Positions 4,751 to 48,650 of a stretch of 64,000 nucleotides of DNA are shown one piece after another (position 1 is the first letter of the stretch; each line of letters begins with the position of its first letter). A program made the position numbers and the translations under genes. Source of the stretch: Eledone cirrhosa (taxonomy: Eukaryota); the NCBI GenBank assembly GCA_964016885.1, contig OZ024743.1:189534001-189598000 (forward strand). The letters run 5' to 3'. The notes under the pieces were generated by a model. That model was given only the letters and a program-made list of their open reading frames with translations. It was not told where the DNA came from and made no database searches.

Positions 4751-5009
4751 TCCTTGTATATAAATATGGTTGTAAACAACATTTCAATTGATTACAGGAG
4801 GACAATATTAGAAACTCTGGTAAAAAGTTTCTATGTCTATAAAATACTGGCATAAAAACATTAACCTTAATAAAGTGAAGTCTACTGGGTTGGACAGGTA
4901 GTATTTTGGTAGAGTTTTCTGTAAATGTTGAAGATTGTACATGCACACATAAACAAAAATCGACATTATGTGCATTTCTTATTTTCTGTTACACTATCAA
5001 AGGGAAAGC

Positions 5010-6603: not shown

Positions 6604-7322
6604 AAATATATATATATAGTATAAAATATGAAGAGAGATTTATTTGATTAAATAATCTAACACGTGTTCCGTAACCAATTACATAATCCTCTACATGAGC
6701 TGCATACAAATATTTTTTTCCATTCACTCACTCATATTATTTTTGAATTCTACAATTTTTCAGGGATTAATTACCAAACATAATGGGAGTGAGTAAATAG
6801 AAAAAGAATCCTATGAAGTTCTCATAGATGATTATGTATTAGGTAATTAAGCACTTGTTTACATCTACCTCTCCAATTCCATATACATCTCCTCCACCCA
6901 AGTCCACAATCCACACGATAAAGGGTTCATCCTGGAGACTAAGCACCCAGTCCACATTAAAGGTGGCCATGTAGGCATCACAACAAAAATCTCCTAACCA
7001 TGTTGAGGACTTGACAAAATGGGGCAAGCCCACACTGTAAAGTGGTCAGGTAGGTGTCATGACAAAAAGCGGCCAGTCCACACTGTAAAGCGGCCATGTG
7101 GGTGTCAAGAGAAATACATCCAGTCCACACTGTAAATGTGGTTGGCATTAGGAAGGGCATCCAACCATAGAAACCAAGCTAAAATCAGTTCTGTGTGAGC
7201 AAAACACAGTTCTCCAACTTGGATGTCTCACAACAGGACAGCAAGTTCTACCCATGCTAGCATGGAAAATGGACGCTAAACGATGCTGCTGATATATATA
7301 TATGCTGCTGATATATATATAA

Positions 7323-7418
<96 letters not shown>

Positions 7419-8249
7419 TTATGTATATATTGCAAGGTCTGAAGTAAGAGCTTTAAACAGTAACATATTGTGAAAATGTAAGAGGGAAGCCAAATAAATT
7501 ACATAGATTGCTGTGCTAAATTTACTAGAAATATATGTTTTGAAAACACCAGCTGACAATAAGCAAAACTCATCTTGAAGTTTTGCTTTTCATTCAACTT
7601 GGTACTGCTAGCCAACCTTTTATTCATTATCTCTAGCTATGCACACTTTGGTGAGTTTCTTTGTAGAACATTGTAACATAATGTGAACCAGAAATTTGAG
7701 TTGCCTCTGTCTATTTGGTTTGACGTTGGTCTCACTGTTCCCCAGTATTCAGGTTATCAATGTAACTGGGATGACATCAAATGCGGTTCAACCTGCATGA
7801 TGATTGAGTCTTCTCCAGATCAGCACTCACTTGTCTACTTGTGGTCTGCCTCACAGCCAAACTGCAGTGTTTGGCTCAATTTGGTGATGTCTTCATCAAC
7901 CATTACACTTCTTCTTGATGATAGCACTTGCTTTGGAGTGGCTCTGTGTGCTTTGACCACCCTATGTGTAATCAACACAAAAGCTATTATGGAGCTATAG
8001 TTGATGAGTTTGTATGACACCCATTTTAGTTTACTTGTTTGATAAAGTTGAATCTCATAATCTTTTTATTATTTGTTTTTCTTTTACTACATGGCCTTGG
8101 ATGATCTTTATTTAACTTATTTTATTTAACTAAACCTCCAGTGTTTTTAACTCCATGTAGTGTGTTGGTGGCTACTGGCATCTAGGTAACCAAACCAAAT
8201 TGTGATATCATAAACATCTCTCAGACTTGGAAGATCCCATGGAATTTCA

Positions 8250-9600
8250 TCTTTCTCATGTTACAAATCAAAACCTCTGTAATTGTAAGTTTCATATCTA
8301 ATGACACTATTTTACTGAGATATTAAATCACAAAACTTGTCAATAACTATGTATTATGATCAGTCTTGCAATGGAGCAAGCACAATGTCAGTTAAACTAT
8401 CTGGTTTCTAAATAAAAATTTAAGAAGTTACTCCAAATGCATGTTTTACACACTGCTATGCAAATTATTAAAATATGGTTCTAATTCATGCAGTAAATTC
8501 TGTTAGTTAAACTATTTTTTCTTGTAACTCTAGAAAGTTTCTATACATATTCTTTTGTGGCAGCTTACCTCATCTTTCAGAATTAAAAGAAGAACAAAGC
8601 AATAAAATCAAATTTTTCACAATGACTCTAAAGAAAATCTTTCTACTTGAAGAGCACCCAGAAAGTCAGCAGTAGAGAAAAACTTGCAGAAAGTGTCAAC
8701 AAATAACTGCTCTATAGAAAGATTATGGATGATGTGATGAAAACTGTATCACTAAGGGAAAAGGATACACTGGAAACACTCAGTACTTAGGAATTCTTAA
8801 CTGTTCGTATATTTTGGAGTAAAGTGTTAGACACATATTCACAAAAACAGTAGTACAGATCAAGTAAAAGCTTCTCATTTGATTTAGCTTTTTGAAAAAG
8901 CTATGAAAAATATGCTAAATAATTATGAATTAAAGAAGATTGACAATTAAGAAACTGAGTTGACTTGAAAATGTGATATCAATCTGGAACACAAGCAACA
9001 GAAAGAATGTAAAAGAAAAAGATTACATGATGAAGGAATATTTTATGCTCAAAACAGATTCATGGTTGATTCCTATTTTGTGTCTTTAGATTATATTATA
9101 ATTGACACAGGTAAAATGTAACTCCCAAATTCAAGATTCAAAGCATTTTGACAAGGCAGATAATGTGAAAAAATTACAATTTTTAGCAAATATAGGCGGC
9201 ATTGACAGTTAAATTGATAACAAGAGTTTCTTTCATTCAAAAGTTTAAACAAAGAAATAATGAACAAGGCAAATCCAAGTGTCAAGAAACTGAACATCAA
9301 CAATGTACTTAAATTCATGATTGCTGATGACATCTGTTCCACTTATCCTAACCTATCCAAATTGCAACACATTTTTCTGACCTCACCAATAACTAGTGCA
9401 GTTGCAGAATGATGCTTTAATCAGCTGAAAGACAATGGAAAAGGATAGATTGTCAGGGTTAGTTTTGCTTTCTATTAGAAGACAGTTGGCTACAGAGGTG
9501 GTTTCTAATAAAATAATAGATAACTTTGCCAGAATGAAGCTTAGACAAAAGATACTGTAGTTTTTTTTTATATATCCATTGTGCACATTGCTTTGTTTCG
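8250..9600 (+). mobile_element. Decayed hAT-family transposase relic
   Basis: YPNLSKLQHIFLTSPITSAVAE*CFNQLK...KDRLSGLVLLSI at ~9345-9480 resembles the hAT C-terminal dimerisation domain; upstream boundary approximate. Confidence 0.6.
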
Positions 9601-9859
9601 TTTTTATTTTGCATTTAAAATCAAATTAATTAAATAACACATTTTAATTATGTTTTGAGATTTATGAGCTTATTGTGAAATTTTTTTATTGTTCGGATTT
9701 TAAATACAAAGTAACAATTATGTACTTCCATTAAAACTATAATGACAGTGGTGAATTGGGGTGTGAAGAGGATGACAGTGATCTGTGAGTTGGTGGTGAA
9801 AGGAAGCCATATTCCTGTGAATTGGGAATTGAATATTCTCCCTGCTTTGTAAAATGGGA

Positions 9860-11010
9860 AAAGCAATCCTCTAGACTGTGACTCATATAGAGCAATTAAG
9901 CTTTTGGAACATGAATTGAATGTATCAGAAAAATAGATAGATAAGGGAAAAGTGAAGATCGATGAAACACAGTTTGGATTTGTACCAAAGAAGGAACAAC
10001 TTATGTAATTTTGATTGTGAAATAATTAAACGAGTCATGCAGTGACAAAAGGAAGAATGGTTCCACATGAAATAGTCATGTGAGTATTGAGATAATTAGG
10101 AGTGGAGGAATGGTTGGTTCAAATTATGATGGCAATGTAGGAGAAAGCCTGTTTAGTATTAAGGAATGGTGATGAATTTGAAGTGAAGGTTGGTGCATTA
10201 GGGATTAATATTAAGCCCACTAATGTGTGTAGTTATGATGGAGGTATTGGCCTAAATTGCAAAGGAGAGTTTACCATGAAAGTTTCTCTACACAGTTAGC
10301 CTGGTGTTAATAGCAGAGAGTATGGCTGAATAGAAGGAGAAAAGGAGTAGCTGGAAGGAACGCCATTAAATGTATAATATGCACTAAGTGAATACATAAG
10401 AAATGTAGTGGTGTAAAGGGATTATTAAATAATGTGGCAGCTACATTTAAGAGTAAAGGACGAATGGGAGGAGCTTGAAATGGAGAGGATATTGAGGTGG
10501 ATCTTGGAAATGGTGTGAGATTGGAGACATGTTGAATTAAGAGGGTGGTTCAGAATCTGCAGTAGTGTCTAAAGTGCATGATAGAAGTCCTGCAAACTAA
10601 TTGTGTGCTAATAAAGTGTGTGTCACTGAATTGAAGGGAAATGTGTGTACTGTATGTGTGAGAAGTTCCTTGATTTATAAAAGTGAATATGGATGTGGAG
10701 CTGCAAGGAAGGCTGGACAGAACAGAAATGAGAATGGTCTGGTAGATGAATAGAAGACAAACAATGAAATGTAGAGGATGATTGGAATAGAACCAATGAT
10801 TAATATTGTGAAGAGAAATGTGGGTCATGTATTGAGAAAGGAAGAAAATAATAGGATGAGAGGAGTGAATAAAATGAATGTCAAAGTAGGGGAAAGGGAA
10901 GATAAACGTTATGGATAAAGTGTTAGAGTATGAAATAGAAGACAAGGAGATGGGGAGGGGTGCATATGGGAAGGTAAACATGAGGAAGCTTGTTATGGGG
11001 CCAACAAGCA
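9860..11010 (+). pseudogene. Highly decayed RTE LINE RT/3' region
   Basis: gatgaaacacagtttggatttgtacca (DETQFGFVP) and LGVEEWLV-like segments; many stops and frameshifts. Confidence 0.65.
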
Positions 11011-16557: not shown

Positions 16558-19500
16558 TTAGGTAAGGCGGGTCTTCTCTGTTACTGAGTACCGCCAAAGG
16601 TCTCGGTCCAGTGACATTGTCTTGGAGAGGTGTAAGTGTGTGATGTCGGAGTTTATCAGCTCGTCCCAGGTTTTTCTAGGTCTGCCTATTCCGTGACTAC
16701 CGTCTATCTTTATTGCCCTGCACTTTGTTATACAGCTATCGACTTTCATGCGCATCACGTGTCCATACCAACGTGTCCTTCTCTCGAGTAAACAACATCT
16801 GATCCCTCTTATCTCTAATTTTTTCCTTAGTTCGTTTATGCTTTGTGTTCACGTATATTACTGTTACACATCCAGCGGAGCATGCAAGCTTCGTTCCTCT
16901 CTAGTCTGCGTATATCCTCTGCACACAATGCCCAGGTCTCACTGCCATGCAGCATTGCTGTTCGTATGCAGGCATCGTACAACCTGCCTTTCATTTTTAG
17001 TGAGAACCCTTTAGCAGCTAATAGTGGTATAAGCTCTCTGAACTTTTTCCAACCAGTTCTGACTCTAGCTACAGTACTTTCAGAGCACCCTCCCCCACTG
17101 CTGATTTTATCGCCCAGGTAACGGAAGCTGTCCACTATTTCTATAGAACCCTCTGCGCAATTGAAAGAGCTAGTAGTTTGTGGGCACTTGCTGCTACTTA
17201 TTGCACCAGAGCACCGGCCACATGTAAAATCTATGTTCTTAGTTAGCTTACCTGTGATCCCACTACATCTTTTATGCACCCATACTTTGCATTTAGGACA
17301 TAAAATGGAGTTTCTACCTACGCCTTTCCTACACACCGAGCACGACCATTTCCCAGAAGGGACCCCCGCCTTGTTTTCTTTCCTACAAACTAGTACTTTG
17401 GTCTTAGCCAGGTTAATTTTAAGTTCTTTTGACTCTAGGCCGTGCTTCCATGTTTGGAATTTCTTCTCTAGCTCGGCCATTGATTCCGCTATGAGTGTCA
17501 GGTCGTCTGCGTATAGGAGTTCCCATGGGCAGCCTGTCTTGAACTCCTCTGTTATAGCCTGAAGGGCAATAATAAATAGTAGTGGACTGAGAACAGAGCC
17601 CTGATGGACGCCAACTTTTACGCTAAACTCTTCACTATATTCGTTGTTAATTCTAACCTTGCTGACTGTTTCTTTATACATGGCTTGTATAGCCCTCACA
17701 AGCCATTCGTCAACGCCTAGTTTTCTAAGAGCCCACCAGATAATGGAGCGGGGGACTCTGTCGAAGGCTTTCTCCAAGTCGACAAAAGCTAAGTAGAGGG
17801 GTTTACCTTTAGCTAGGTACTTCTCCTGTAGTTGTCGTACTATGAAAAGAGCGTCTGTGGTACTTTTGCCTGACACAAACCCGAACTGCATTTCATCTAG
17901 GTCAATTCTCTCTCTGATTAGTTGCGCTATTACTTTTTCCGTGACCTTCATGACCTGGTTGATTAATTTAATGCCTCTATAGTTACTCCTATCTAGGGCG
18001 TCTCCTTTACCCTTATAACAGTTAACGATGATGCTGCTATGCCAGTCCTTCGGAACAACCCCATTCTGTACGACTTGGTTAACTATGCGGGTGACCATGG
18101 TGTGTCCCACCGTGCCAGATGCCTTCAGCATCTCAGCAACTATTTCCGAAGGCCCAGCCGCCTTACCAGTCTTCATATCCTTGATTGCCTTACTTATTAT
18201 ACTCCCCTCGACTAACACTGCTGGTCCCTCTATTGGGTCGATATGGGGGAGACTGCCTTTCTCCCAATTATTCTCCTCATTTAGTAGCCTTTCATAGTGA
18301 CACTTCCAAGCTACCTTCTTATCAGCGTCGGTGATGGCAAGTGTGCCATCGTCGTTTAGTACACACTTCTCCCCGACAATATCACGGTTTTCCTTGACGC
18401 ATTGCCTAGCAATCCTGAACACCTCACGTTTTTGGTCATCGCGTTGTAGAACATGCTTGAACTTTCTTTCCTCAGCTTCCCTTCTTGCTAAGTACACTTG
18501 TCTCCTAGCTTCCCTCCTGGCCACTTGATAGTCCTCTCTACTTCCCCCATCCCGACATACTTTCCAAGCCTGCTTTTTGGCCTTAATTGACCCCTCCACC
18601 TTACTGTTCCACCACCATGTTACTCTCCTCCTGCCTACAGGCCTGCTCCAGCCACAGACCTCGTCTGTCGCCAACAGCAGGTTTGCTTTCAGAAATTCCC
18701 ACTCTCCCTCTATATTGTCCGACTCTAAATGTTCTTCCTTACTGTCGAAAGCATCAAGTAATATGCTTTGAAATTTATTCCTGGCTGTGGGGTCCTTTAG
18801 CTTCCATATTTTCCTCCTGAGGATAGTCCTCTTCTGTTGTCGAGTACGTCTCGTCCTGACTATGAGGTCGCTAATTATCAGTCTATGTTGGGAGGTGCAT
18901 TCTTCATGGGGGAGGGATTTAGTGTTAACAACAGACACTCTGTCACGTCTTCTGGTAAGGATATAATCTACCTGGCTTGTGTGTTCCCCGGATCTATAGG
19001 TGATCAGGTGATTGTCACGTTTTTTGAAGTTAGTGTTACAGATAGTTAGGTTATTTGCATCACAGAATTCCAGGATTCTGGCGCCTTCCTCATTTCTAGT
19101 ACCAAACCCATAGCCTCCATGGATTTCGTCGTAGCCGTCACAATGTTGTCCAACGTGACCATTTAGGTCGCCTGCGATAATTATATAGTCACTGTCGGAT
19201 ATTTGGGAGGTAGTTAGCATCAGTGTCTCATAGAATCTGTCTTTTATAGTGCCGGGCAGTCCGGATTGGGGTGCGTACGCAGATATTACTGTCACCGTAG
19301 TTCTATTGAGGACAAGTCGTATTTTAATTATTCTGTCGTTCACTCTATTTACGTCTATTATCTTATCTGCCCACTTTTCTGCTACCATGATTCCTACTCC
19401 ACCCAGCCCATCGTCGTTTCCCACCCAGAAAAGCTTATAACATCGTTTTTTACCCTCAATGAACCTAGCAGACCCATCCCTCCACCTGGTCTCTTGAATA

Positions 19501-19997
19501 CAACAAACATCGACCTCCTTACGTTCAAGCATCTCTACAACCTCGTTAGCGCGACCCTTTAGGGTGCCTACATTTATGGTACCAACTCTGAAGTTTTGGA
19601 TTGCGTTTGGGGGTTGGGGGCGGTGAGGGGCGGGGGGCGATGGGGTTATGTTAGCCGTCCGCGGTCGAAACAATGAGGAGTGCTCGCATTCTCGTCCAAG
19701 AGGTGAATTTGTCTTTATCTTTGGCATTGTCGCTGAGCGTCCAGATTTTTCTCTCTCACCTCCACTCTCCAGGATTCCGCAGTCCATCCATCCATCATAT
19801 ATCGTATATCGAAAGGCAACCAGGCAAGCGATAGTATAGGCCTCTGGTTTCTGATTGGTCCGCGTAATAATACTGGTGATGCGTGGGGGCTCTGTTTTAT
19901 GATTGGTCCACGTAATAGCAATGGTGGGGGTGGGAGGGAGGGGTGTTGGGTAGCTAGCAAGAAGGTAATGATTGAGTGGGGTCCATGCATTTAACAA
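16558..19997 (-). CDS. RTE ORF: AP endonuclease, reverse transcriptase, PHD-like finger; single frameshift at ~16842
   Basis: GTINVGTL, IQETRW, AGDLNGHVG, QVDYIL, SQHRL (APE); NYRGIKL, FVDLEKAFD, GVHQGSVLSP, LYADDL (RT); 1053-aa ORF ends at 16836 and another frame continues RWYGHVMRM...GRPRKTW to a stop at 16558; true start codon uncertain (possibly MPKIKT). Confidence 0.9.
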
Positions 19998-20169
19998 GCG
20001 ATTAACAAAAATACAAAATTTGTTCTGTTAAATACGTCCAAAAACCTACGTATTTAGCAATTAATAGAAACAGAAAATGTAGTTTGTTTTAGCGATAGAT
20101 TGGCTATTTGGACTTGATACGAAATATGGATTGTTTTGAAAATACGCTAGAATTAAGATTTGTGGAGGG

Positions 20170-36460: not shown

Positions 36461-37513
36461 ATTACTCTATATTTACTATTATATTTTCACAGAAAACGTT
36501 TTATCTCACATAATATAAAATCTATGGGAATTTGGTATTATGTATTTTGAGAACAATACCTTAATATAAGTATGAGCAGCTGGTCATGGCCAGTTTGAAC
36601 AGAAGAGGTGAGAAAATTCTGGCCAGATATGGCTGGTGTTTAAATGCTAAAGTTTTAAGAAGATGACTTCGTCCAATAATTGAAATGCCTCGCCATCATG
36701 AAGAAAGATGCTATTCCAGGTTGATTTTAATACTGAACCAGATTAGGAAAAGAACACTATGTATATACATCTACTGTGTATATATATATAAGTATATATA
36801 TCTCACTATATATAAGATACATATTTTTTATATTTATATTATCCAATACATTCTATGCTAACTTACAAAATATAATGGCCAAATATTATCAAATTCTTTT
36901 CTTATAACTGAATAAATACACTATCTTAACTTTATAAAGAAAAGCTTCAACAATTCAACTATATTAACCAATTCACAGCATTCTAACAATTGTTTTAGCA
37001 AAAGACACAAGTAACCTTATAACGTAGCATGTTTTTTTATAAAACCTTCTTCTCCATAACATGCACTTGAATCTCATTGCCTGCTTAAACATATGCATTT
37101 GGAATTTTTCGGTATCTTAAAATTGTCTTATTGTTGGTATCTATTATTTTACTATTTTTTTTTATTCTGAATAATATTTCCTGAAGAGATATGGTTGGGA
37201 TAAAGCATCCATGATGGGGATAATTATTAACTAATAATTACTACCTGAACTGCCATTAACAACAGGATATTTTAACTACAATATCGTAATCCTTCAGTTT
37301 ATACTCCCAAGAGTAATGTGGATTGAGTTATTATAATCTTACCAAAGCAAATAGTGAAGTACTACACTATGATCACATATATTATTTATTTTATATATAT
37401 ATATATATATTTCAGAGTACCAATTCTAATTTTCAATTTTTGCTCGTCCGGCAACTGCTCTGTATAATCAGTTCCTGATTATTACTGGAATTCTATAAGA
37501 ATCCAACATTCAT

Positions 37514-37610
37514 AATTTTCAGCAAACAGGAGGAGTAGTGAGCTTTGATAAGTACCAACAAGTACGAAACAGAGCTCTGTCAGCTTATCTCCCCTTGTTT
37601 GCTGAAAATT
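37514..37610 (+). ncRNA. Type I hammerhead ribozyme with U3-A8 core, predicted GUC cleavage after 37581
   Basis: AGCU-UUGAUAA-GUAC caacaa GUAC-GAAA-CAGAGCUCUG-UC-AGCU; distal stem I aattttcagcaaaca/tgtttgctgaaaatt (15 bp). Confidence 0.85.
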
Positions 37611-37726
37611 GAAGTAAGTGACACTGTCACTACTTTAAAACAATAGCGTAAGGTCTTCAAAATGCTTTTAATTAAGCATACAGTGTACTGCAACCTATAC
37701 TATATATACATTCATATATATATATA

Positions 37727-38925
37727 ACAAAGGAATTGTGGTAAGGAACCAGATGGACCATAACGCACCAGAGTACTCAATACTTAGGGTAGTAGAGTGG
37801 GAAATAGGAAAAAGTATGACCCCGACGGCAGAGCTCAAGCCGTTTCGACGGCTATTTCTGGACTTAATTAGAATTTTTAGCCTGGTGAATAAATAGCCGA
37901 ACTTGTCAAGGGGGTACTTCCTTATATGGGAAGATTGTATTTTTCAAGAGGATTGGTTAAAATTTGTTGTAAACACAAATAAGTCTATCATGGCATTTGG
38001 TAGGAGGTAGGGGTGGCTGAACTTGCCTGTAGAACAATAGGGGAGTGAGTGGAGCGGTCAAGCGTTGAGAGTGATATGTATACAGCAGATTCTAAGGATA
38101 GTGTATGAATTGGAGGAGGAAGGTTATAGATTAGGTAAATCGAATGAGAGTAGGAGACAATAAAAGATAATAGAAAGAAATAAACAAAAATATAAAATTA
38201 GATAGTGAGAGATGAATAAAAAAAAACACAATGCTATCTTACAATTACAGGTTAATAAGCTGAGAATAGAAAAAAAACTAAGAAGTTGAGTAGTAACAAA
38301 ACTGATACAAATTAAAGGGGTTTAACACGTTTGCTATAAGTAGTTAGTAAAACGTATTCGACCAGTTCTCTCTTAAAATTACAGGGGTGGGGGAACTGAC
38401 GCTAGAGAGGCCCGATGAGCTGCATCGGGGTAGGCGAAAGGGGACAAGTAGACGAGGAAGAAAATAGGGGATGGAAGGAAGTGATAGGATGAGACAGGGG
38501 GGAGAAGAAGACAAAGAGGAAAAGAAAAGAGATACATCTACATATGTAAGTTGGCGTTTCCCCTAACTTATTCTTCAAGTGGGAGGGGAGGGTATCAGCC
38601 CTTGTCTACCCACCCGGGTCGTTATGGGGTTTGAGGGCAAGGTAAGTCCTACGGAATCTGTGTTTGCATGCGGTTACAAGTTCGTCTTTCTTGTTTAGAA
38701 GTTGGACCTTCGAAAACAGCATTTGTAATGTTTCCTCCGAGCATAAGTTACACGGACGGCGTCCTCCCGTGTAAGAGTTAGCTCTGGACAGTAGGCTCCA
38801 AGTGAGATTGTAGGTTATATTATTATCTTGGAGGTCCCATATGTGGCCCGAAAGTGTAGTGGCATGTCGCCGGACCGGGTTTCGGAAGGTATGTCGGTGT
38901 TGGTAGAGCCGGGTCTTGAATATAC

Positions 38926-38926
<1 letters not shown>
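37727..38926 (-). mobile_element. 5'-truncated Penelope-like element: GIY-YIG C-terminus, 3' UTR and HHR
   Basis: [12 protein letters not shown]...TTLSGHIW...[10 protein letters not shown]...CNLCSEE...LLNKKDEL..CKH (stop at 38606); bounded by TA runs. Confidence 0.85.
37812..37919 (-). ncRNA. Type I hammerhead ribozyme with U3-A8 core, predicted GUC cleavage between 37824 and 37823
   Basis: Reverse complement: AAGUAcCCCC-UUGACAA-GuuCGGCUAUUU...AAAUAGCCGuC-GAAA-CGGC uugagcucu GCCG-UC-GGGGucaUACUU. Confidence 0.85.
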
Positions 38927-38996
<70 letters not shown>

Positions 38997-39014
38997 CGTA
39001 TATATACATATATT

Positions 39015-39051
<37 letters not shown>

Positions 39052-39278
39052 ATACGTATATATACATATATTTATATATATACATACGTATATATACATA
39101 TATATATATATATACATACGTATATATACATATATATATATATATATACATACGTATATATACATATATATATATATACATACGTATATATACATATATA
39201 TATATATATATACATACGTATATATACATATATATATACATACGTATATATACATATATATATATATATATACATACG

Positions 39279-39310
<32 letters not shown>

Positions 39311-39462
39311 CATACGTATATATACATATATATATATATACATACGTATATATACATATATATATATATATACGTATATATACATACATATATATACATA
39401 CGTATATATACATACATATATATATATATACATACGTATATATACATATATATATACATACG

Positions 39463-39497
<35 letters not shown>

Positions 39498-39568
39498 ATA
39501 CGTATATATACATATATATATATATATATATACATACATACGTATATATACATATATATATACATACG

Positions 39569-39626
<58 letters not shown>

Positions 39627-39628
39627 CG

Positions 39629-39670
<42 letters not shown>

Positions 39671-39748
39671 CATACGTATATATACATATATATATATATA
39701 TACATACATACGTATATATACATATATATATATATATACATACATACG

Positions 39749-39783
<35 letters not shown>

Positions 39784-39788
39784 ATACG

Positions 39789-39830
<42 letters not shown>

Positions 39831-39862
39831 CGTATATATACATACATATATATATACATACG

Positions 39863-39942
<80 letters not shown>

Positions 39943-39967
39943 CATATATATACATATATATATATAC

Positions 39968-40003
<36 letters not shown>

Positions 40004-40121
40004 GTACGTATATATACATATATATATATATATATACATATGTATATATATACATATATATATATATATATACATATGTATATATACATATATATGTATA
40101 TATGTATATATATATATATAT

Positions 40122-40210
<89 letters not shown>
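38921..40210. repeat. ~1.3-kb compound (TA)n satellite with recurring catacgtatatatacat unit
   Basis: Direct inspection; explains the spurious YI-repeat ORFs. Confidence 0.95.
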
Positions 40211-40213
<3 letters not shown>

Positions 40214-41192
40214 GTTTACATATACATAAAGTTATATATATATATATGTTGCAACCGGTCACTTTTAAGCTCTATGAAGAATTAATAAATTAAATAATCA
40301 GAGCAATATATCATAAATCATGTCCTTAGAATTATTAGATAAAATATATACTATTTCCTCTTCTAATTAGCATAATTAACCATATAAAAAATCAATTAGA
40401 CCAAGCTATTAGAAGAAAGGCTCTTATGAAGAAATCTCCGACAAATAACTGAAAGTGGCCTCTTCGCGGCGGCCGCAATAGATTATTTATCCAACATTTC
40501 AACGGCATGTAGAAACTGACTAAATATATCATCAACCATACACAATTAGTTGTAAAATTAAACTTAGAAGAAATGTGTACATACCGTAATTATATCTCTA
40601 CCATGGTTTCATCCGTATTTTTAGAGATCCAAATAATCGGAATGTCTTGAGTTAGGATTGATCAGGAGACAAACTCAAAATCAGACATCTAGTTTTCTAA
40701 CCCGATTGCGCCAAAATTAGATTAAAAAATGGTTAAGAATCGCTATGTGGATGTGGTCAAGCTAGAAAGAATGTGATTGGTTGCTTACGGCGGGTAGGCT
40801 TGCTGCTAGAAAGCGCAGCCAAATATCGCCAAATTGAATCTCAAGCTAACGGGAGATTATTAAATATAAAGGTTTACATATACATAAAGTTATAGATATA
40901 TATATGTTGCAACCGGTCACTTTTAAGCTCTATGAAGAATTAATAAATTAAATAATCAGAGCAATAAATCATAAATCATGTCCTTAGAATTATTAGATAA
41001 AATATATACTATTTCCTCTTCTAATTAGCATAATTAACCATATAAAAAACCATATAAAAAATCAATTAGACCAAGCTATAAGAAGAAAGGCTCTTATGAA
41101 GAAATCTCCGACAAATAACTGAAAGTGGCCTCTTCGCGGTGGAAATAGTATATATTTTATCTAATAATTCTAAGGACATGATTCATGATATA

Positions 41193-46535: not shown

Positions 46536-48650
46536 CAGAATAAGATCTTGAATGGAGAAGAGAGATTGCCAAAATGGCTCACTTTTTGGAGAATGATCTT
46601 GTGTTTGATGGACTCTGCAATGGAAATGCAGTTGGCAACTTCACACCTATATCTTGTTTCCTTCTTATGTGGGAACTTATGACAGGTGTCACAGCTGAGA
46701 TACAGAGGAGATACTACTTGCAGAGCAGAAGGGATGTAGGAGAAGAAGCAAGGGGACAAAGAATCAATTGTTGATTTATAAGGTGATCCTTAAAGATTGT
46801 AAAGGGAGACACAAGTCTTGCCATGGTCTGGATCGATTACCACAAGGCTTATGACATGGTGCCACATAGTTGGATAGTAGAATGTTTGAAAATCTTTGAT
46901 ACTGCAGCTAACGTTAGGCAGTTTCTGGTGAGCTGTATGGATGGTTGGGAGACTGAAGTGACATCATCTCGACAAACATTGGGAGTTGTGAAGATCAAGA
47001 AAGGAATATTTCAGGGAGACAGTCTTTCACACTTGCTGTTTTTACTGTGTATGGTTCCACTTTCATTTGTGTTGAGTAGGTCAAATGCTAGTTATCAGTG
47101 GGGAGGATGCAAGTTTAAAATAAACCACTTGCTGTTCATAGATGATGTAAAATTTTATGGAAAATCCTAGGAACATATTTATTCCTTTGTACAGACAGTT
47201 CATACATTCTGTATGGATATAGGAATGGAATTTAGCATTAAAAAATGTGGGCTTCTACTGCTGAAGCGAAGTAAAATTAATAAGATGGAAGGAATTGAAT
47301 TATCAGATGGACAAGTTATGAAAGAAATTGATGACAACAGGTATAGGTACTTAGGCATAATGAAAACAAACCAAATGAAAGAACTATTATCAAAGAAATA
47401 TAAACAGAGACTGAAGTTGGTGTTAAAGATGAAGTTAAGTGGTAGAAATAAGATACTGGCTATCAACACACAGGCTGTTGCAGTGCTAAGGTATAGCACT
47501 GGTGGGATAGAGTGGAGATGTGATGAACTTAAGGAGCTTGATAAAAATACCAAGAAAATGATAAAACTACAAGGGACTCTACACCCCAAAAGTGACGTGA
47601 ACATGTATCTCCCACAACAGGGAAGAAGAAAGGGTCTCATAGGCTCTGAAATGTGTGTGAAGACCAAGGAAAATAATCTGGCATGACATGTTATGAGTTC
47701 AAAGGAGAAATTGATGGCATGAATAAGAAAGATAAAGGTCCTAAGCAGTGATGAAACAGAAGAAAGGCAGACAAAATGACACCTTGCCTAGATGAAAAAA
47801 ATAAATGAATGGTCAATTCTTGCTTGAAATGCCTGAGGCAGTTGAAAAAGATAAGAACTGGAAATGAACTTGAAAATGTGACTTGAAAGTTAAAACTGAA
47901 GCCCTTTTTTTTTTGCAGCACAGGATCAGTAACTGAGAACAAACTATATCAAGTTCAATATTGATATATGACTGAATTCCTCAATTTGTAGGTGATGTGG
48001 TGAGAAAGCTGAAACAATAAACCACATTATTAACAAATGTAAGATGCTTGCACAGAAAGAGTAGAAGCGAAGATATGACAATTTGCCAGATTCATTCATT
48101 GGATTCTCTGTCATAAGTATGACATGAACAGGAGTGAGAAATGTTATGTGCACCAGCCGGGAAGAGTTGCTGAAAATGAACAGTATAAAATCTTGTGGCA
48201 AATAACCATCCAGTGTGACCATCTTATGATGGCTAGAAAACCTGAAATTGTTGTTGTAGAAAAGAAGAATAACAAGGAAATGATCGTGGATATTGCTTCA
48301 CCATGGCATCATAGGATGAATGAGAAAGATAAGAAATACCAGGAGCTGAAGAAGGAAAAACAGGAAACTGTGGAGAATCAGACACGTAGAAGTGGTACCA
48401 ATTGTAGTTGGTGGACTGGGAGCCATTAGTAAAAGGTTAGATGAATGTCTTGAGAAACTAGGAATTACCATCAGGCTGGGATTATTGCAGAAAATAGTCT
48501 TGATAGGAACTGCAAGGAGTACAACGAGGGTGTTCGAAAGTGGAAGGTAAAGAACACACCTAAATGATCTTTGCCTATTGGCTATGGCTTGCTCAGATAT
48601 TATGGTTTTGGTATAACTTCTACCAGAGAAAAAGCATTACAAATGGCAAT
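46536..48650 (+). pseudogene. Decayed R4/Dong-type LINE (RT, CCHC knuckle, restriction-like endonuclease)
   Basis: [65 protein letters not shown]...IVDIASP. Confidence 0.9.

What the first reader, a model, noticed from the sequence alone, without database searches (positions are those of the whole stretch)
37514..37919. Two unrelated hammerheads with the compensatory U3-A8 core and the same palindromic GAGCUC stem III loop
Seen: UUGAUAA (+, 37545-51) and UUGACAA (-, 37909-03) replace CUGANGA, so the tertiary C3-G8 pair becomes U3-A8 in both. Stems I-III and the GUC sites are intact, and both stem III loops contain GAGCUC although stems I and II are unrelated. The two face each other ~200 bp apart, and the minus one is in the 3' UTR of a PLE. 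Established: 3-8 is a Watson-Crick pair that tolerates compensatory swaps, and palindromic stem III sequences permit dimeric HHRs. Inference: a selected double change marking a lineage invisible to CTGATGA searches; the shared palindrome could allow homo- or heterodimeric cleavage.
Basis: partly seen in the sequence, partly recalled or inferred. Interest (0 to 1): 0.8.

Follow-up and report, generated by a model that had tools for sequence, protein, structure and literature searches.

The report
Two unrelated U3-A8 hammerhead retroelement ends
Two different jumping elements, each present in more than a thousand copies in this animal genome, end back to back at one TA repeat here, and each carries a hammerhead motif, likely a self-cutting RNA, with a rare but already published swapped core base pair; they are predicted to work as pairs of their own kind, not with each other.

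Summary
Both motifs are real type I hammerheads with U3-A8 cores. The plus one lies in a ~320-bp non-coding unit that forms tandem arrays (retrozyme-like family A; U3-A8 in 1081 of 1099 exact hits). The minus one lies in the terminal repeat of a 5'-truncated Penelope-like element (family B; 4200 of 4806). They are separate insertions at one TA tract, not one lineage: A's nearest sister subfamily has C3-G8, and a third U3-A8 family lacks GAGCUC. In A the swap is a true compensatory change. In B, an older subfamily with a mismatched C3·A8 core (588 hits) also amplified, so the pair was not always required. Homodimers are predicted (the A-A minimum-energy fold is the swapped active dimer). An active heterodimer is excluded because dimers swap stem I arms and these are not complementary. 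U3-A8 in PLE hammerheads, palindromic stem III and opposite-strand neighbours are all published (PMC4209133, PMC3088659), and this scan noted the same motif type in another genome. Cleavage and expression were not shown. Verdict: new members of a known kind, with a useful natural series of core variants.

The parts
37410..37715 (+). One unit of family A, a ~320-bp non-coding hammerhead element (non-LTR retrozyme-like), flanked by TA tracts
   Evidence: Homology to other copies spans about 37390-37726; tandem arrays of 17 and 14 near-full units, period 318-322 bp, in L127 and L138
37513..37611 (+). Hammerhead A, type I: core TTGATAA 37545-51 (U3, A8), stem II 37552-65, GAAA 37566-69, predicted cut after C17 37581, long stem I
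   Evidence: covariation
37569..37580 (+). Perfect 12-nt palindrome A15.1-U16.1 of A (GAGCTC at 37572-77); predicted 12-bp stem III of the homodimer
   Evidence: sequence; self-duplex -20.1 kcal/mol against hairpin -1.8
37715..37727 (.). Short TA tract at which the 3' ends of A and B meet
   Evidence: sequence; ends of homology
37727..38920 (-). 5'-truncated Penelope-like element of family B (endonuclease tail, 3' untranslated region, terminal repeat)
   Evidence: copies align over 37696-38920; full unit in L129
37808..37922 (-). Hammerhead B, type I: core TTGACAA 37909-03 (U3, A8), long stem II, GAAA 37846-43, 5-bp stem III with 9-nt loop holding GAGCTC (37831-36), predicted cut after C17 37824
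38606..38920 (-). Last ~104 codons of the PLE ORF (C-terminal part of the GIY-YIG-type endonuclease with His/Cys motif); cut off upstream by a long TA-rich tract
   Evidence: translation; 92% identical to the ORF end of L129; Pfam gives no hit

Best explanation
The locus holds two separate retroelement copies that end tail to tail at one TA tract, likely through independent insertions, and each carries its own family's U3-A8 hammerhead, which likely cuts precursor RNA of its own element and is predicted to pair only with copies of itself. Shown: family membership, copy numbers, core states, tandem arrays of A, PLE context of B, covariation. Predicted by folding: an A monomer misfolds (stem I arm pairs with the palindrome, active form costs 4.7 kcal/mol), while two tandem A units fold into the strand-swapped active dimer, which would release ~320-nt monomers as in known non-LTR retrozymes; B can form the active fold as a monomer (cost 2.3 kcal/mol) or as a homodimer. 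Inferred: U3-A8 arose separately in A and in B as a tolerated alternative Watson-Crick pair; GAGCUC is a convergent self-complementary dimerisation loop; A is moved in trans by a TA-targeting PLE; the closeness of the two reflects shared target preference.
For: A: 1081 U3-A8, 0 C3-G8, 18 single mismatches among 1099 exact hits. A-clade relatives with C3-G8: 95 of the first 100 listed of 817 hits and 90 of the first 100 of 1362. U3-A8 rows form one side of a branch, 100/98, in a 42-row tree. The nearest sister (5 copies) differs from A (13 copies) at 15 of 223 columns, 13 of them in the hammerhead hairpin, including three compensatory doubles: 3-8, 10.1-11.1 and 37522-37602. In a 27-row alignment the 3-8 pair is CG in 16 and UA in 11, never unpaired; 90% of cells paired against 35-51% for slid controls. 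Tandem dimer costs 1.0 against 13.7 kcal/mol for two active monomers; A-A cofold minimum is the swapped active dimer, gain 7.7; B-B gain 13.9; A-B gain 0.0. B: 4200 U3-A8, N7 taking all four letters. A B tail lies within 1.5 kb of 7 of 28 A loci and 5 of 22 C3-G8 sister loci that lack GAGCUC, against 7 of 180 random and 6 of 71 TA-centred windows. The B copy beside A in L026 belongs to another subfamily than the window's.
Against: No cleavage or expression data. B's fold alone is not significant (z -1.4). An amplified C3·A8 subfamily of B (588 hits) shows that an intact 3-8 pair was not needed for amplification, and in a lizard PLE hammerhead mutants did not affect insertion in vitro and no reads ended at the cut site (PMC11167929, passages). 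PLE minimal hammerheads cleave poorly in vitro (PMC4209133). Rfam finds no hammerhead in the window. Pfam and PDB searches did not recognise the PLE protein, so its identity rests on motifs read in the sequence and on insertion structure. 0 of 13 further A-clade loci had a B tail nearby, which weakens the clustering estimate. No autonomous partner of A was found. Folding energies ignore tertiary contacts.
Confidence: 0.8

Rival explanations
1. The hammerheads are largely dispensable passengers, above all in B: U3-A8 was reached by drift through a mismatch state, and the structure serves protein binding or reverse-transcription stops and not cleavage.
For: 588 C3·A8 hits with their own subfamilies and inverted or tandem insertions; hammerhead mutants do not affect insertion of a lizard PLE in vitro (PMC11167929); Naiad PLEs thrive without hammerheads (PMC8557442, passages); many B inserts are truncated inside stem II.
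Against: The youngest B subfamily (99% pairwise likeness, intact ORFs) has U3-A8 and is nested in the older C3·A8 grade (86%), and U3-A8 monophyly is rejected, AU p = 0.005, so the pair was re-formed at least once. In A no mismatch subfamily was seen (18 of 1099) and stems covary.
Confidence: 0.3
2. GAGCUC and U3-A8 are causally linked: the perfect palindrome can pair with a C3-G8 core and its stem I arm, so U3-A8 was selected to weaken that trap.
For: Swapping to C3-G8 in silico raises the cost of the active fold by 3.0 (A) and 4.8 (B) kcal/mol; in A the loop change GAGAUC to GAGCUC and the core swap map to the same short branch, costs 2.0 (C3-G8, GAGAUC), 7.6 (C3-G8, GAGCUC), 4.6 (U3-A8, GAGCUC); native C3-G8 hits show a median difference of -0.1 (n = 73) against 3.0 for native U3-A8 (n = 72); only 93 C3-G8-plus-GAGCTC hits genome-wide, many of them chance joins to truncated B copies.
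Against: The 72 U3-A8 hits are mostly copies of two families. An older C3-G8 A subfamily without GAGCUC shows the same penalty, 2.8 kcal/mol, and amplified to about 800 hits. U3-A8 occurs without GAGCUC (L109, L142) and an old C3-G8 family has GAGCTC. C-G to U-A weakens any misfold.
Confidence: 0.2
3. One reading: A and B belong to one U3-A8 lineage and cleave as a heterodimer through the shared palindrome.
For: Shared core and shared 8-mer in stem III; isolated strands can form a -14.8 kcal/mol duplex; A and B ends recur near each other.
Against: No alignable sequence; A's switch is internal to its clade; stem I arms cannot cross-pair and the GAGCUC register is out of step with A15.1-U16.1; no cofold gain; C3-G8 relatives without the palindrome cluster with B as well (5 of 22; 0 of 13); opposite strands.
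Confidence: 0.03

Closest known systems
U3-A8 minimal hammerheads of Cercyon Penelope-like elements in Schistosoma mansoni (Cervera and de la Pena 2014, PMC4209133; parts 1-2 of 4 read, supplements searched)
   Same: Type I, U3-A8 core, in PLE terminal repeats, more than a thousand hits per genome, palindromic stem III, pairs on opposite strands 100-700 bp apart, missed by the standard descriptor.
   Different: Here stem III is long (12-nt palindrome in A; 5-bp stem with 9-nt loop in B), not minimal; B has a very long stem II; one family is a non-coding tandem unit; a C3·A8 subfamily and close C3-G8 sisters are present. GAGCUC had 0 occurrences in the 2 searchable supplement files (one file not searched).
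Metazoan non-LTR retrozymes (Cervera and de la Pena 2020, PMC7229834, passages; Li, Clavereau and Pollet 2026, bioRxiv 10.64898/2026.07.22.740005, part 1 of 5 and passages)
   Same: 150-450-bp low-GC tandem units with one type I hammerhead each, no coding capacity, dimer-favoured cleavage, proposed PLE origin.
   Different: U3-A8 core; circular or linear RNA of A not shown; no sequence link to a PLE terminal repeat found.
Natural U3-A8 core variants (Perreault et al. 2011, PMC3088659, passages)
   Same: Covariation of C3-G8 to U3-A8 in nature; the paper says such ribozymes were already proven active in vitro.
   Different: Scattered examples there; here whole amplified families with traceable intermediates.
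Neptune/Nematis-type EN+ Penelope-like elements (Craig et al. 2021, PMC8557442, passages)
   Same: One ORF with RT motif, Cys-rich linker and C-terminal GIY-YIG-like motif; pLTR with hammerhead; 5' truncation, inverted copies, microsatellite targets.
   Different: Clade not tested by a tree against reference PLEs; Pfam does not recognise the domains.

Membership tests
Type I hammerhead ribozyme | Three helices round the core N3-U4-G5-A6-N7-N8-A9 / G12-A13-A14-A15.1 / U16.1-H17, open stem I | tested here: met
Type I hammerhead ribozyme | Watson-Crick pair between positions 3 and 8 | tested here: met
   U3-A8 in both window copies; CG 16 / UA 11 / unpaired 0 in A clade; not met in the C3·A8 subfamily of B
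Type I hammerhead ribozyme | Covariation in helices | tested here: met
   A clade: 9 of 27 pairs change on both sides (75 of 500 shuffles reach that count; 0 of 500 reach the covariation score; rows are related). Not run on an alignment for B.
Type I hammerhead ribozyme | Match to an Rfam hammerhead model | tested here: not met
   No hammerhead family among 124 matches at E <= 1; the window's C3-G8 hammerhead candidates were missed too, so the miss is not specific to U3-A8
Type I hammerhead ribozyme | Self-cleavage after H17 | not testable with these tools
   needs in vitro assay or raw RNA reads
Non-LTR retrozyme (family A) | Tandem units of 150-450 bp, each with a type I hammerhead, non-coding, low GC | tested here: met
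   arrays with 318-322-bp period in L127, L138, L139, L140; the window copy itself is a solo unit
Non-LTR retrozyme (family A) | Expressed as unit-length linear and circular RNA | not testable with these tools
   no RNA holder listed
Non-LTR retrozyme (family A) | Derived from a PLE terminal repeat | tested here: inconclusive
   no significant similarity to the 10 PLE downstream regions tried; insertion pattern is PLE-like
Penelope-like element (family B) | Single ORF with RT followed by GIY-YIG endonuclease | tested here: inconclusive
   motifs LYRDD, Cys linker and VIYQ...AYIG read in the L129 ORF; no Pfam or PDB hit
Penelope-like element (family B) | Partial tandem forming pLTRs with a hammerhead, inverted 5'-truncated copies | tested here: met
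   L129: hammerhead at 4787 and 7905 flanking the ORF, inverted copy upstream; similar in L130, L147
Penelope-like element (family B) | Neptune clade by RT phylogeny | not tested
   inferred from the Cys linker only
Dimeric hammerhead | Self-complementary stem III and stem I arms that can swap between partners | tested here: met
   A-A and B-B pairs all allowed over 4 bp of stem I; A-B not

The most novel reading that the evidence does not exclude
This genome records compensatory evolution of a ribozyme's core pair in action: family B amplified for a time with a broken C3·A8 core and later re-formed the pair as U3-A8 in its youngest, most active subfamily, while family A gained a perfect palindrome together with U3-A8 and so became a monomer-off, dimer-on switch. 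The series (C3-G8, C3·A8, U3-A8, plus a fixed U4A core in the neighbouring PLE family) would give natural constructs to test whether hammerhead cleavage matters for PLE and retrozyme mobility.
Probability: 0.3. Interest if true: 0.55.

Novelty: new member of a known kind. Interest (0 to 1): 0.32.

Why it matters
The motif type is known, so the locus itself is ordinary. Two things remain useful. First, more than 5000 exact U3-A8 hits in two families of one genome are missed by CUGANGA descriptors, so hammerhead and retrozyme counts are underestimates. Second, the role of hammerheads in Penelope-like elements is open; closely related subfamilies with paired, mismatched and re-paired 3-8 positions make that question directly testable with natural sequences. 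Six paper searches turned up no report of an amplified C3·A8 subfamily, but two key papers could not be read.

Tried and rejected
Rfam search of the window: no hammerhead. Sequencing runs: no RNA holder listed; laying contigs of 2 of the 4 listed runs showed no start or end pile-ups, which contigs cannot show; its one use was a loose end that pointed to A relatives with a 13-nt stem II, which the 14-nt pattern could not see (followed up). First B tree was confounded by flanking sequence of truncated copies and had not converged; replaced by a tree of the ORF end (49 of the 65 endonuclease hits kept: hits not reaching the ORF end, the window's duplicates and distant outgroups dropped). The 6 C3-G8 copies of B were first taken for an ancestral group; they scatter among C3·A8 copies (6 changes for 6 rows) and about 2 are expected from the A8G rate of 12 in 4212 applied to 588 older copies, so they are read as sporadic mutants. 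Shared ancestry of A and B: no alignment better than E 0.6. Palindrome-forces-U3-A8: control failed in part. Forced A-B active dimer: the script crashed; replaced by listing required pairs and free cofolding. A CCGATGA...GAAA stretch near 38403-38440 (+) has no stem I partner by eye and was not hit by the scan. Pfam and PDB did not classify the PLE protein. Lunse, Weinberg and Breaker 2017 and Przybilski and Hammann 2007 are not held: I saw only their titles in reference lists and a review's summary of the first (PMC6765202, passages); either may already describe such variants. Supplements of the bioRxiv preprint were not seen. No look-up of earlier notes on this genome found anything.

Full report
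Observation. A two-strand scan of the window gave five hammerhead-like hits with a Watson-Crick 3-8 pair, two of them U3-A8: 37545 (+, here A) and 37909 (-, here B). A lies in a 99-nt hairpin (z -9.1); B's fold alone is unremarkable (z -1.4). Predicted cuts follow C17 at 37581 and 37824. In A the whole A15.1-U16.1 strand is a 12-nt palindrome; in B GAGCUC sits in a 9-nt loop. Rfam reports no hammerhead in the window. The genome is a 3.0-Gb animal assembly; my impression that it is a cephalopod is recalled and comes from no call.

What A is. Copies share about 330 bp (37390-37726) and no more; they sit in TA tracts, often with an inverted truncated copy or a partial tandem. Elsewhere the unit forms arrays with a 318-322-bp period, 17 near-full units in L127 and 14 in L138. 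This fits non-LTR retrozymes (PMC7229834, passages). Exact patterns give 1081 U3-A8, 0 C3-G8 and 18 single mismatches (reversed controls 0). The clade also has large C3-G8 subfamilies with other stem III inserts: 817 hits with a 14-nt stem II (95 of the first 100 listed are C3-G8, 5 C3·A8) and 1362 with 13 nt (90 of the first 100 C3-G8, 5 U3-A8, 5 mismatched). In a 42-row tree (one copy per locus, young copies thinned, 37 hits without a parsable core left out) U3-A8 rows are one side of a branch with 100/98 support; the tree has no outgroup, but the C3-G8 side holds the longer end branches and most loop types, so C3-G8 to U3-A8 is the likelier direction. The nearest sister differs at 15 of 223 columns, 13 within the hairpin, with three compensatory doubles (3-8, 10.1-11.1, 37522-37602) and the loop change that perfects the palindrome. 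Pair counts on 27 aligned copies: 3-8 is CG in 16, UA in 11; 90% of cells pair against 35-51% in slid controls; the rows are related, so these are a few events, not 27.

What B is. The window holds the last 1.2 kb of a Penelope-like element: 104 codons of endonuclease tail (38606-38920), about 700 bp of untranslated sequence, the hammerhead and a short tail. L129 has a full unit with the hammerhead at both ends of an ORF showing an RT motif, a Cys linker and a GIY-YIG-like motif; Pfam and PDB do not recognise it, and the Neptune-type label is inferred from the linker as described in PMC8557442 (passages). Core states by exact pattern: U3-A8 4200, C3·A8 588, U3·G8 12, C3-G8 6. N7 varies freely. 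The C3·A8 copies are a set of older subfamilies (median pairwise likeness 0.86 against 0.96 for the window's subfamily and 0.99 for the youngest; 16 copies each). A tree of the ORF end places them between two U3-A8 groups; holding all U3-A8 rows together is rejected (AU p 0.005; groups defined by core letters, but the test was run after the tree was seen; root unresolved). So B went U to C to U, or C to U twice: the mismatch did not stop amplification, yet the pair was re-formed at least once. One transition could be chance.

Are A and B one lineage? No alignment links them. A's switch lies inside its own clade. A third family, upstream of another PLE ORF in L109, has U3-A8 with a different palindrome, and an old C3-G8 family has GAGCTC. 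In 60 evenly spaced 10-kb stretches the scan found 19 C3-G8 and 2 U3-A8 hits (reversed control 1 and 0; it missed one B copy there), so U3-A8 is a minority state.

Why they are adjacent. Both end in the same TA tract. A B tail lies within 1.5 kb of 7 of 28 A loci, 5 of 22 C3-G8 sister loci, 0 of 13 further A-clade loci, 7 of 180 random windows and 6 of 71 TA-centred windows (Fisher p 0.02 against TA-centred windows was computed without the 13). The excess, such as it is, does not depend on U3-A8 or GAGCUC. The neighbouring B copies come from different subfamilies, so the arrangement is not one duplicated unit. Shared target preference is the simplest cause (inference). Opposite-strand neighbours 100-700 bp apart were already noted in PMC4209133.

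How they likely work. In a dimeric type I hammerhead the strand that leaves GAAA becomes the substrate of the partner, so stem I arms are exchanged (established; described in PMC4209133). A-A and B-B satisfy this; A-B does not. The monomer of A is predicted to misfold (active form +4.7 kcal/mol), while a natural tandem pair reaches the swapped dimer at +1.0 against +13.7 for two active monomers, and the free A-A cofold minimum is the active dimer (gain 7.7). B-B gains 13.9, A-B 0.0. A is therefore predicted to be off as a monomer and on in tandem transcripts; the solo copy here could act only in trans. B is predicted to work alone or as a homodimer. None of this is measured; PLE hammerheads can be slow or need protein, and may be dispensable for insertion (PMC4209133; PMC11167929).

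A link between palindrome and core? In silico C3-G8 costs 3.0 (A) and 4.8 (B) kcal/mol, more than in most native C3-G8 families, and both changes share a branch in A. But an older C3-G8 subfamily without GAGCUC bears the same penalty. I keep this as a minor rival.

Comparison with what is known. Natural U3-A8 cores were reported in 2011 (PMC3088659, passages) and about 1300 in schistosome PLEs in 2014. Palindromic stem III and dimers are standard for PLE hammerheads (PMC6765202, passages). Two primary papers were not available, so the claim that an amplified C3·A8 subfamily is unreported rests on six searches only.

Verdict. Observation confirmed; interpretation partly supported; new members of a known kind; interest 0.32, owed mainly to the natural series of core variants.

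Noticed in passing
L147-L166 (G000, e.g. L147:6767, L148:4994): Older subfamilies of PLE family B with a fixed mismatched C3·A8 hammerhead core, 588 exact hits, lying between two U3-A8 groups in the tree.
   Followed up: partly
L070, L144:8171, L160:1300, L116:2232 and others: The PLE family next to B (about 50% endonuclease identity) carries a hammerhead-like motif with a fixed CAGAAGA core (U4A, C3-G8), 18 of 20 hits in the loci held.
   Followed up: partly
L142:5917-7130: A-clade subfamily with U3-A8, G at position 9 and a different near-palindromic stem III, 4 copies in inverted plus tandem arrangement beside a B tail.
   Followed up: no
L109:7075-7130 and 7318-9947: Third U3-A8 family, upstream of a distinct PLE ORF (38% endonuclease identity to B), short stem III without GAGCTC.
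   Followed up: partly
L005, L013, L022, L081, L087, L117, L127: Many B inserts are 5'-truncated inside stem II of the hammerhead with an inverted duplicate; in 600 kb sampled, short tails outnumber full cores. Possibly a reverse-transcription stop or template switch at the hairpin. One such subfamily's core was never seen.
   Followed up: no
window 29817 (+), 29786 (-), 13895 (-): Three further hammerhead candidates with the canonical C3-G8 core; the first two form an inverted pair.
   Followed up: no
window 16836-20027 (-): 1063-aa open frame of a LINE-type element: AP endonuclease, RT and a PHD finger match.
   Followed up: no
window 46787-47170 (+): RT fragment (PF00078).
   Followed up: no
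window 38921-40230 and 40210-41140: 1.3-kb TA-rich microsatellite at the truncation point of B, followed by a ~660-bp spaced direct repeat of another element.
   Followed up: no
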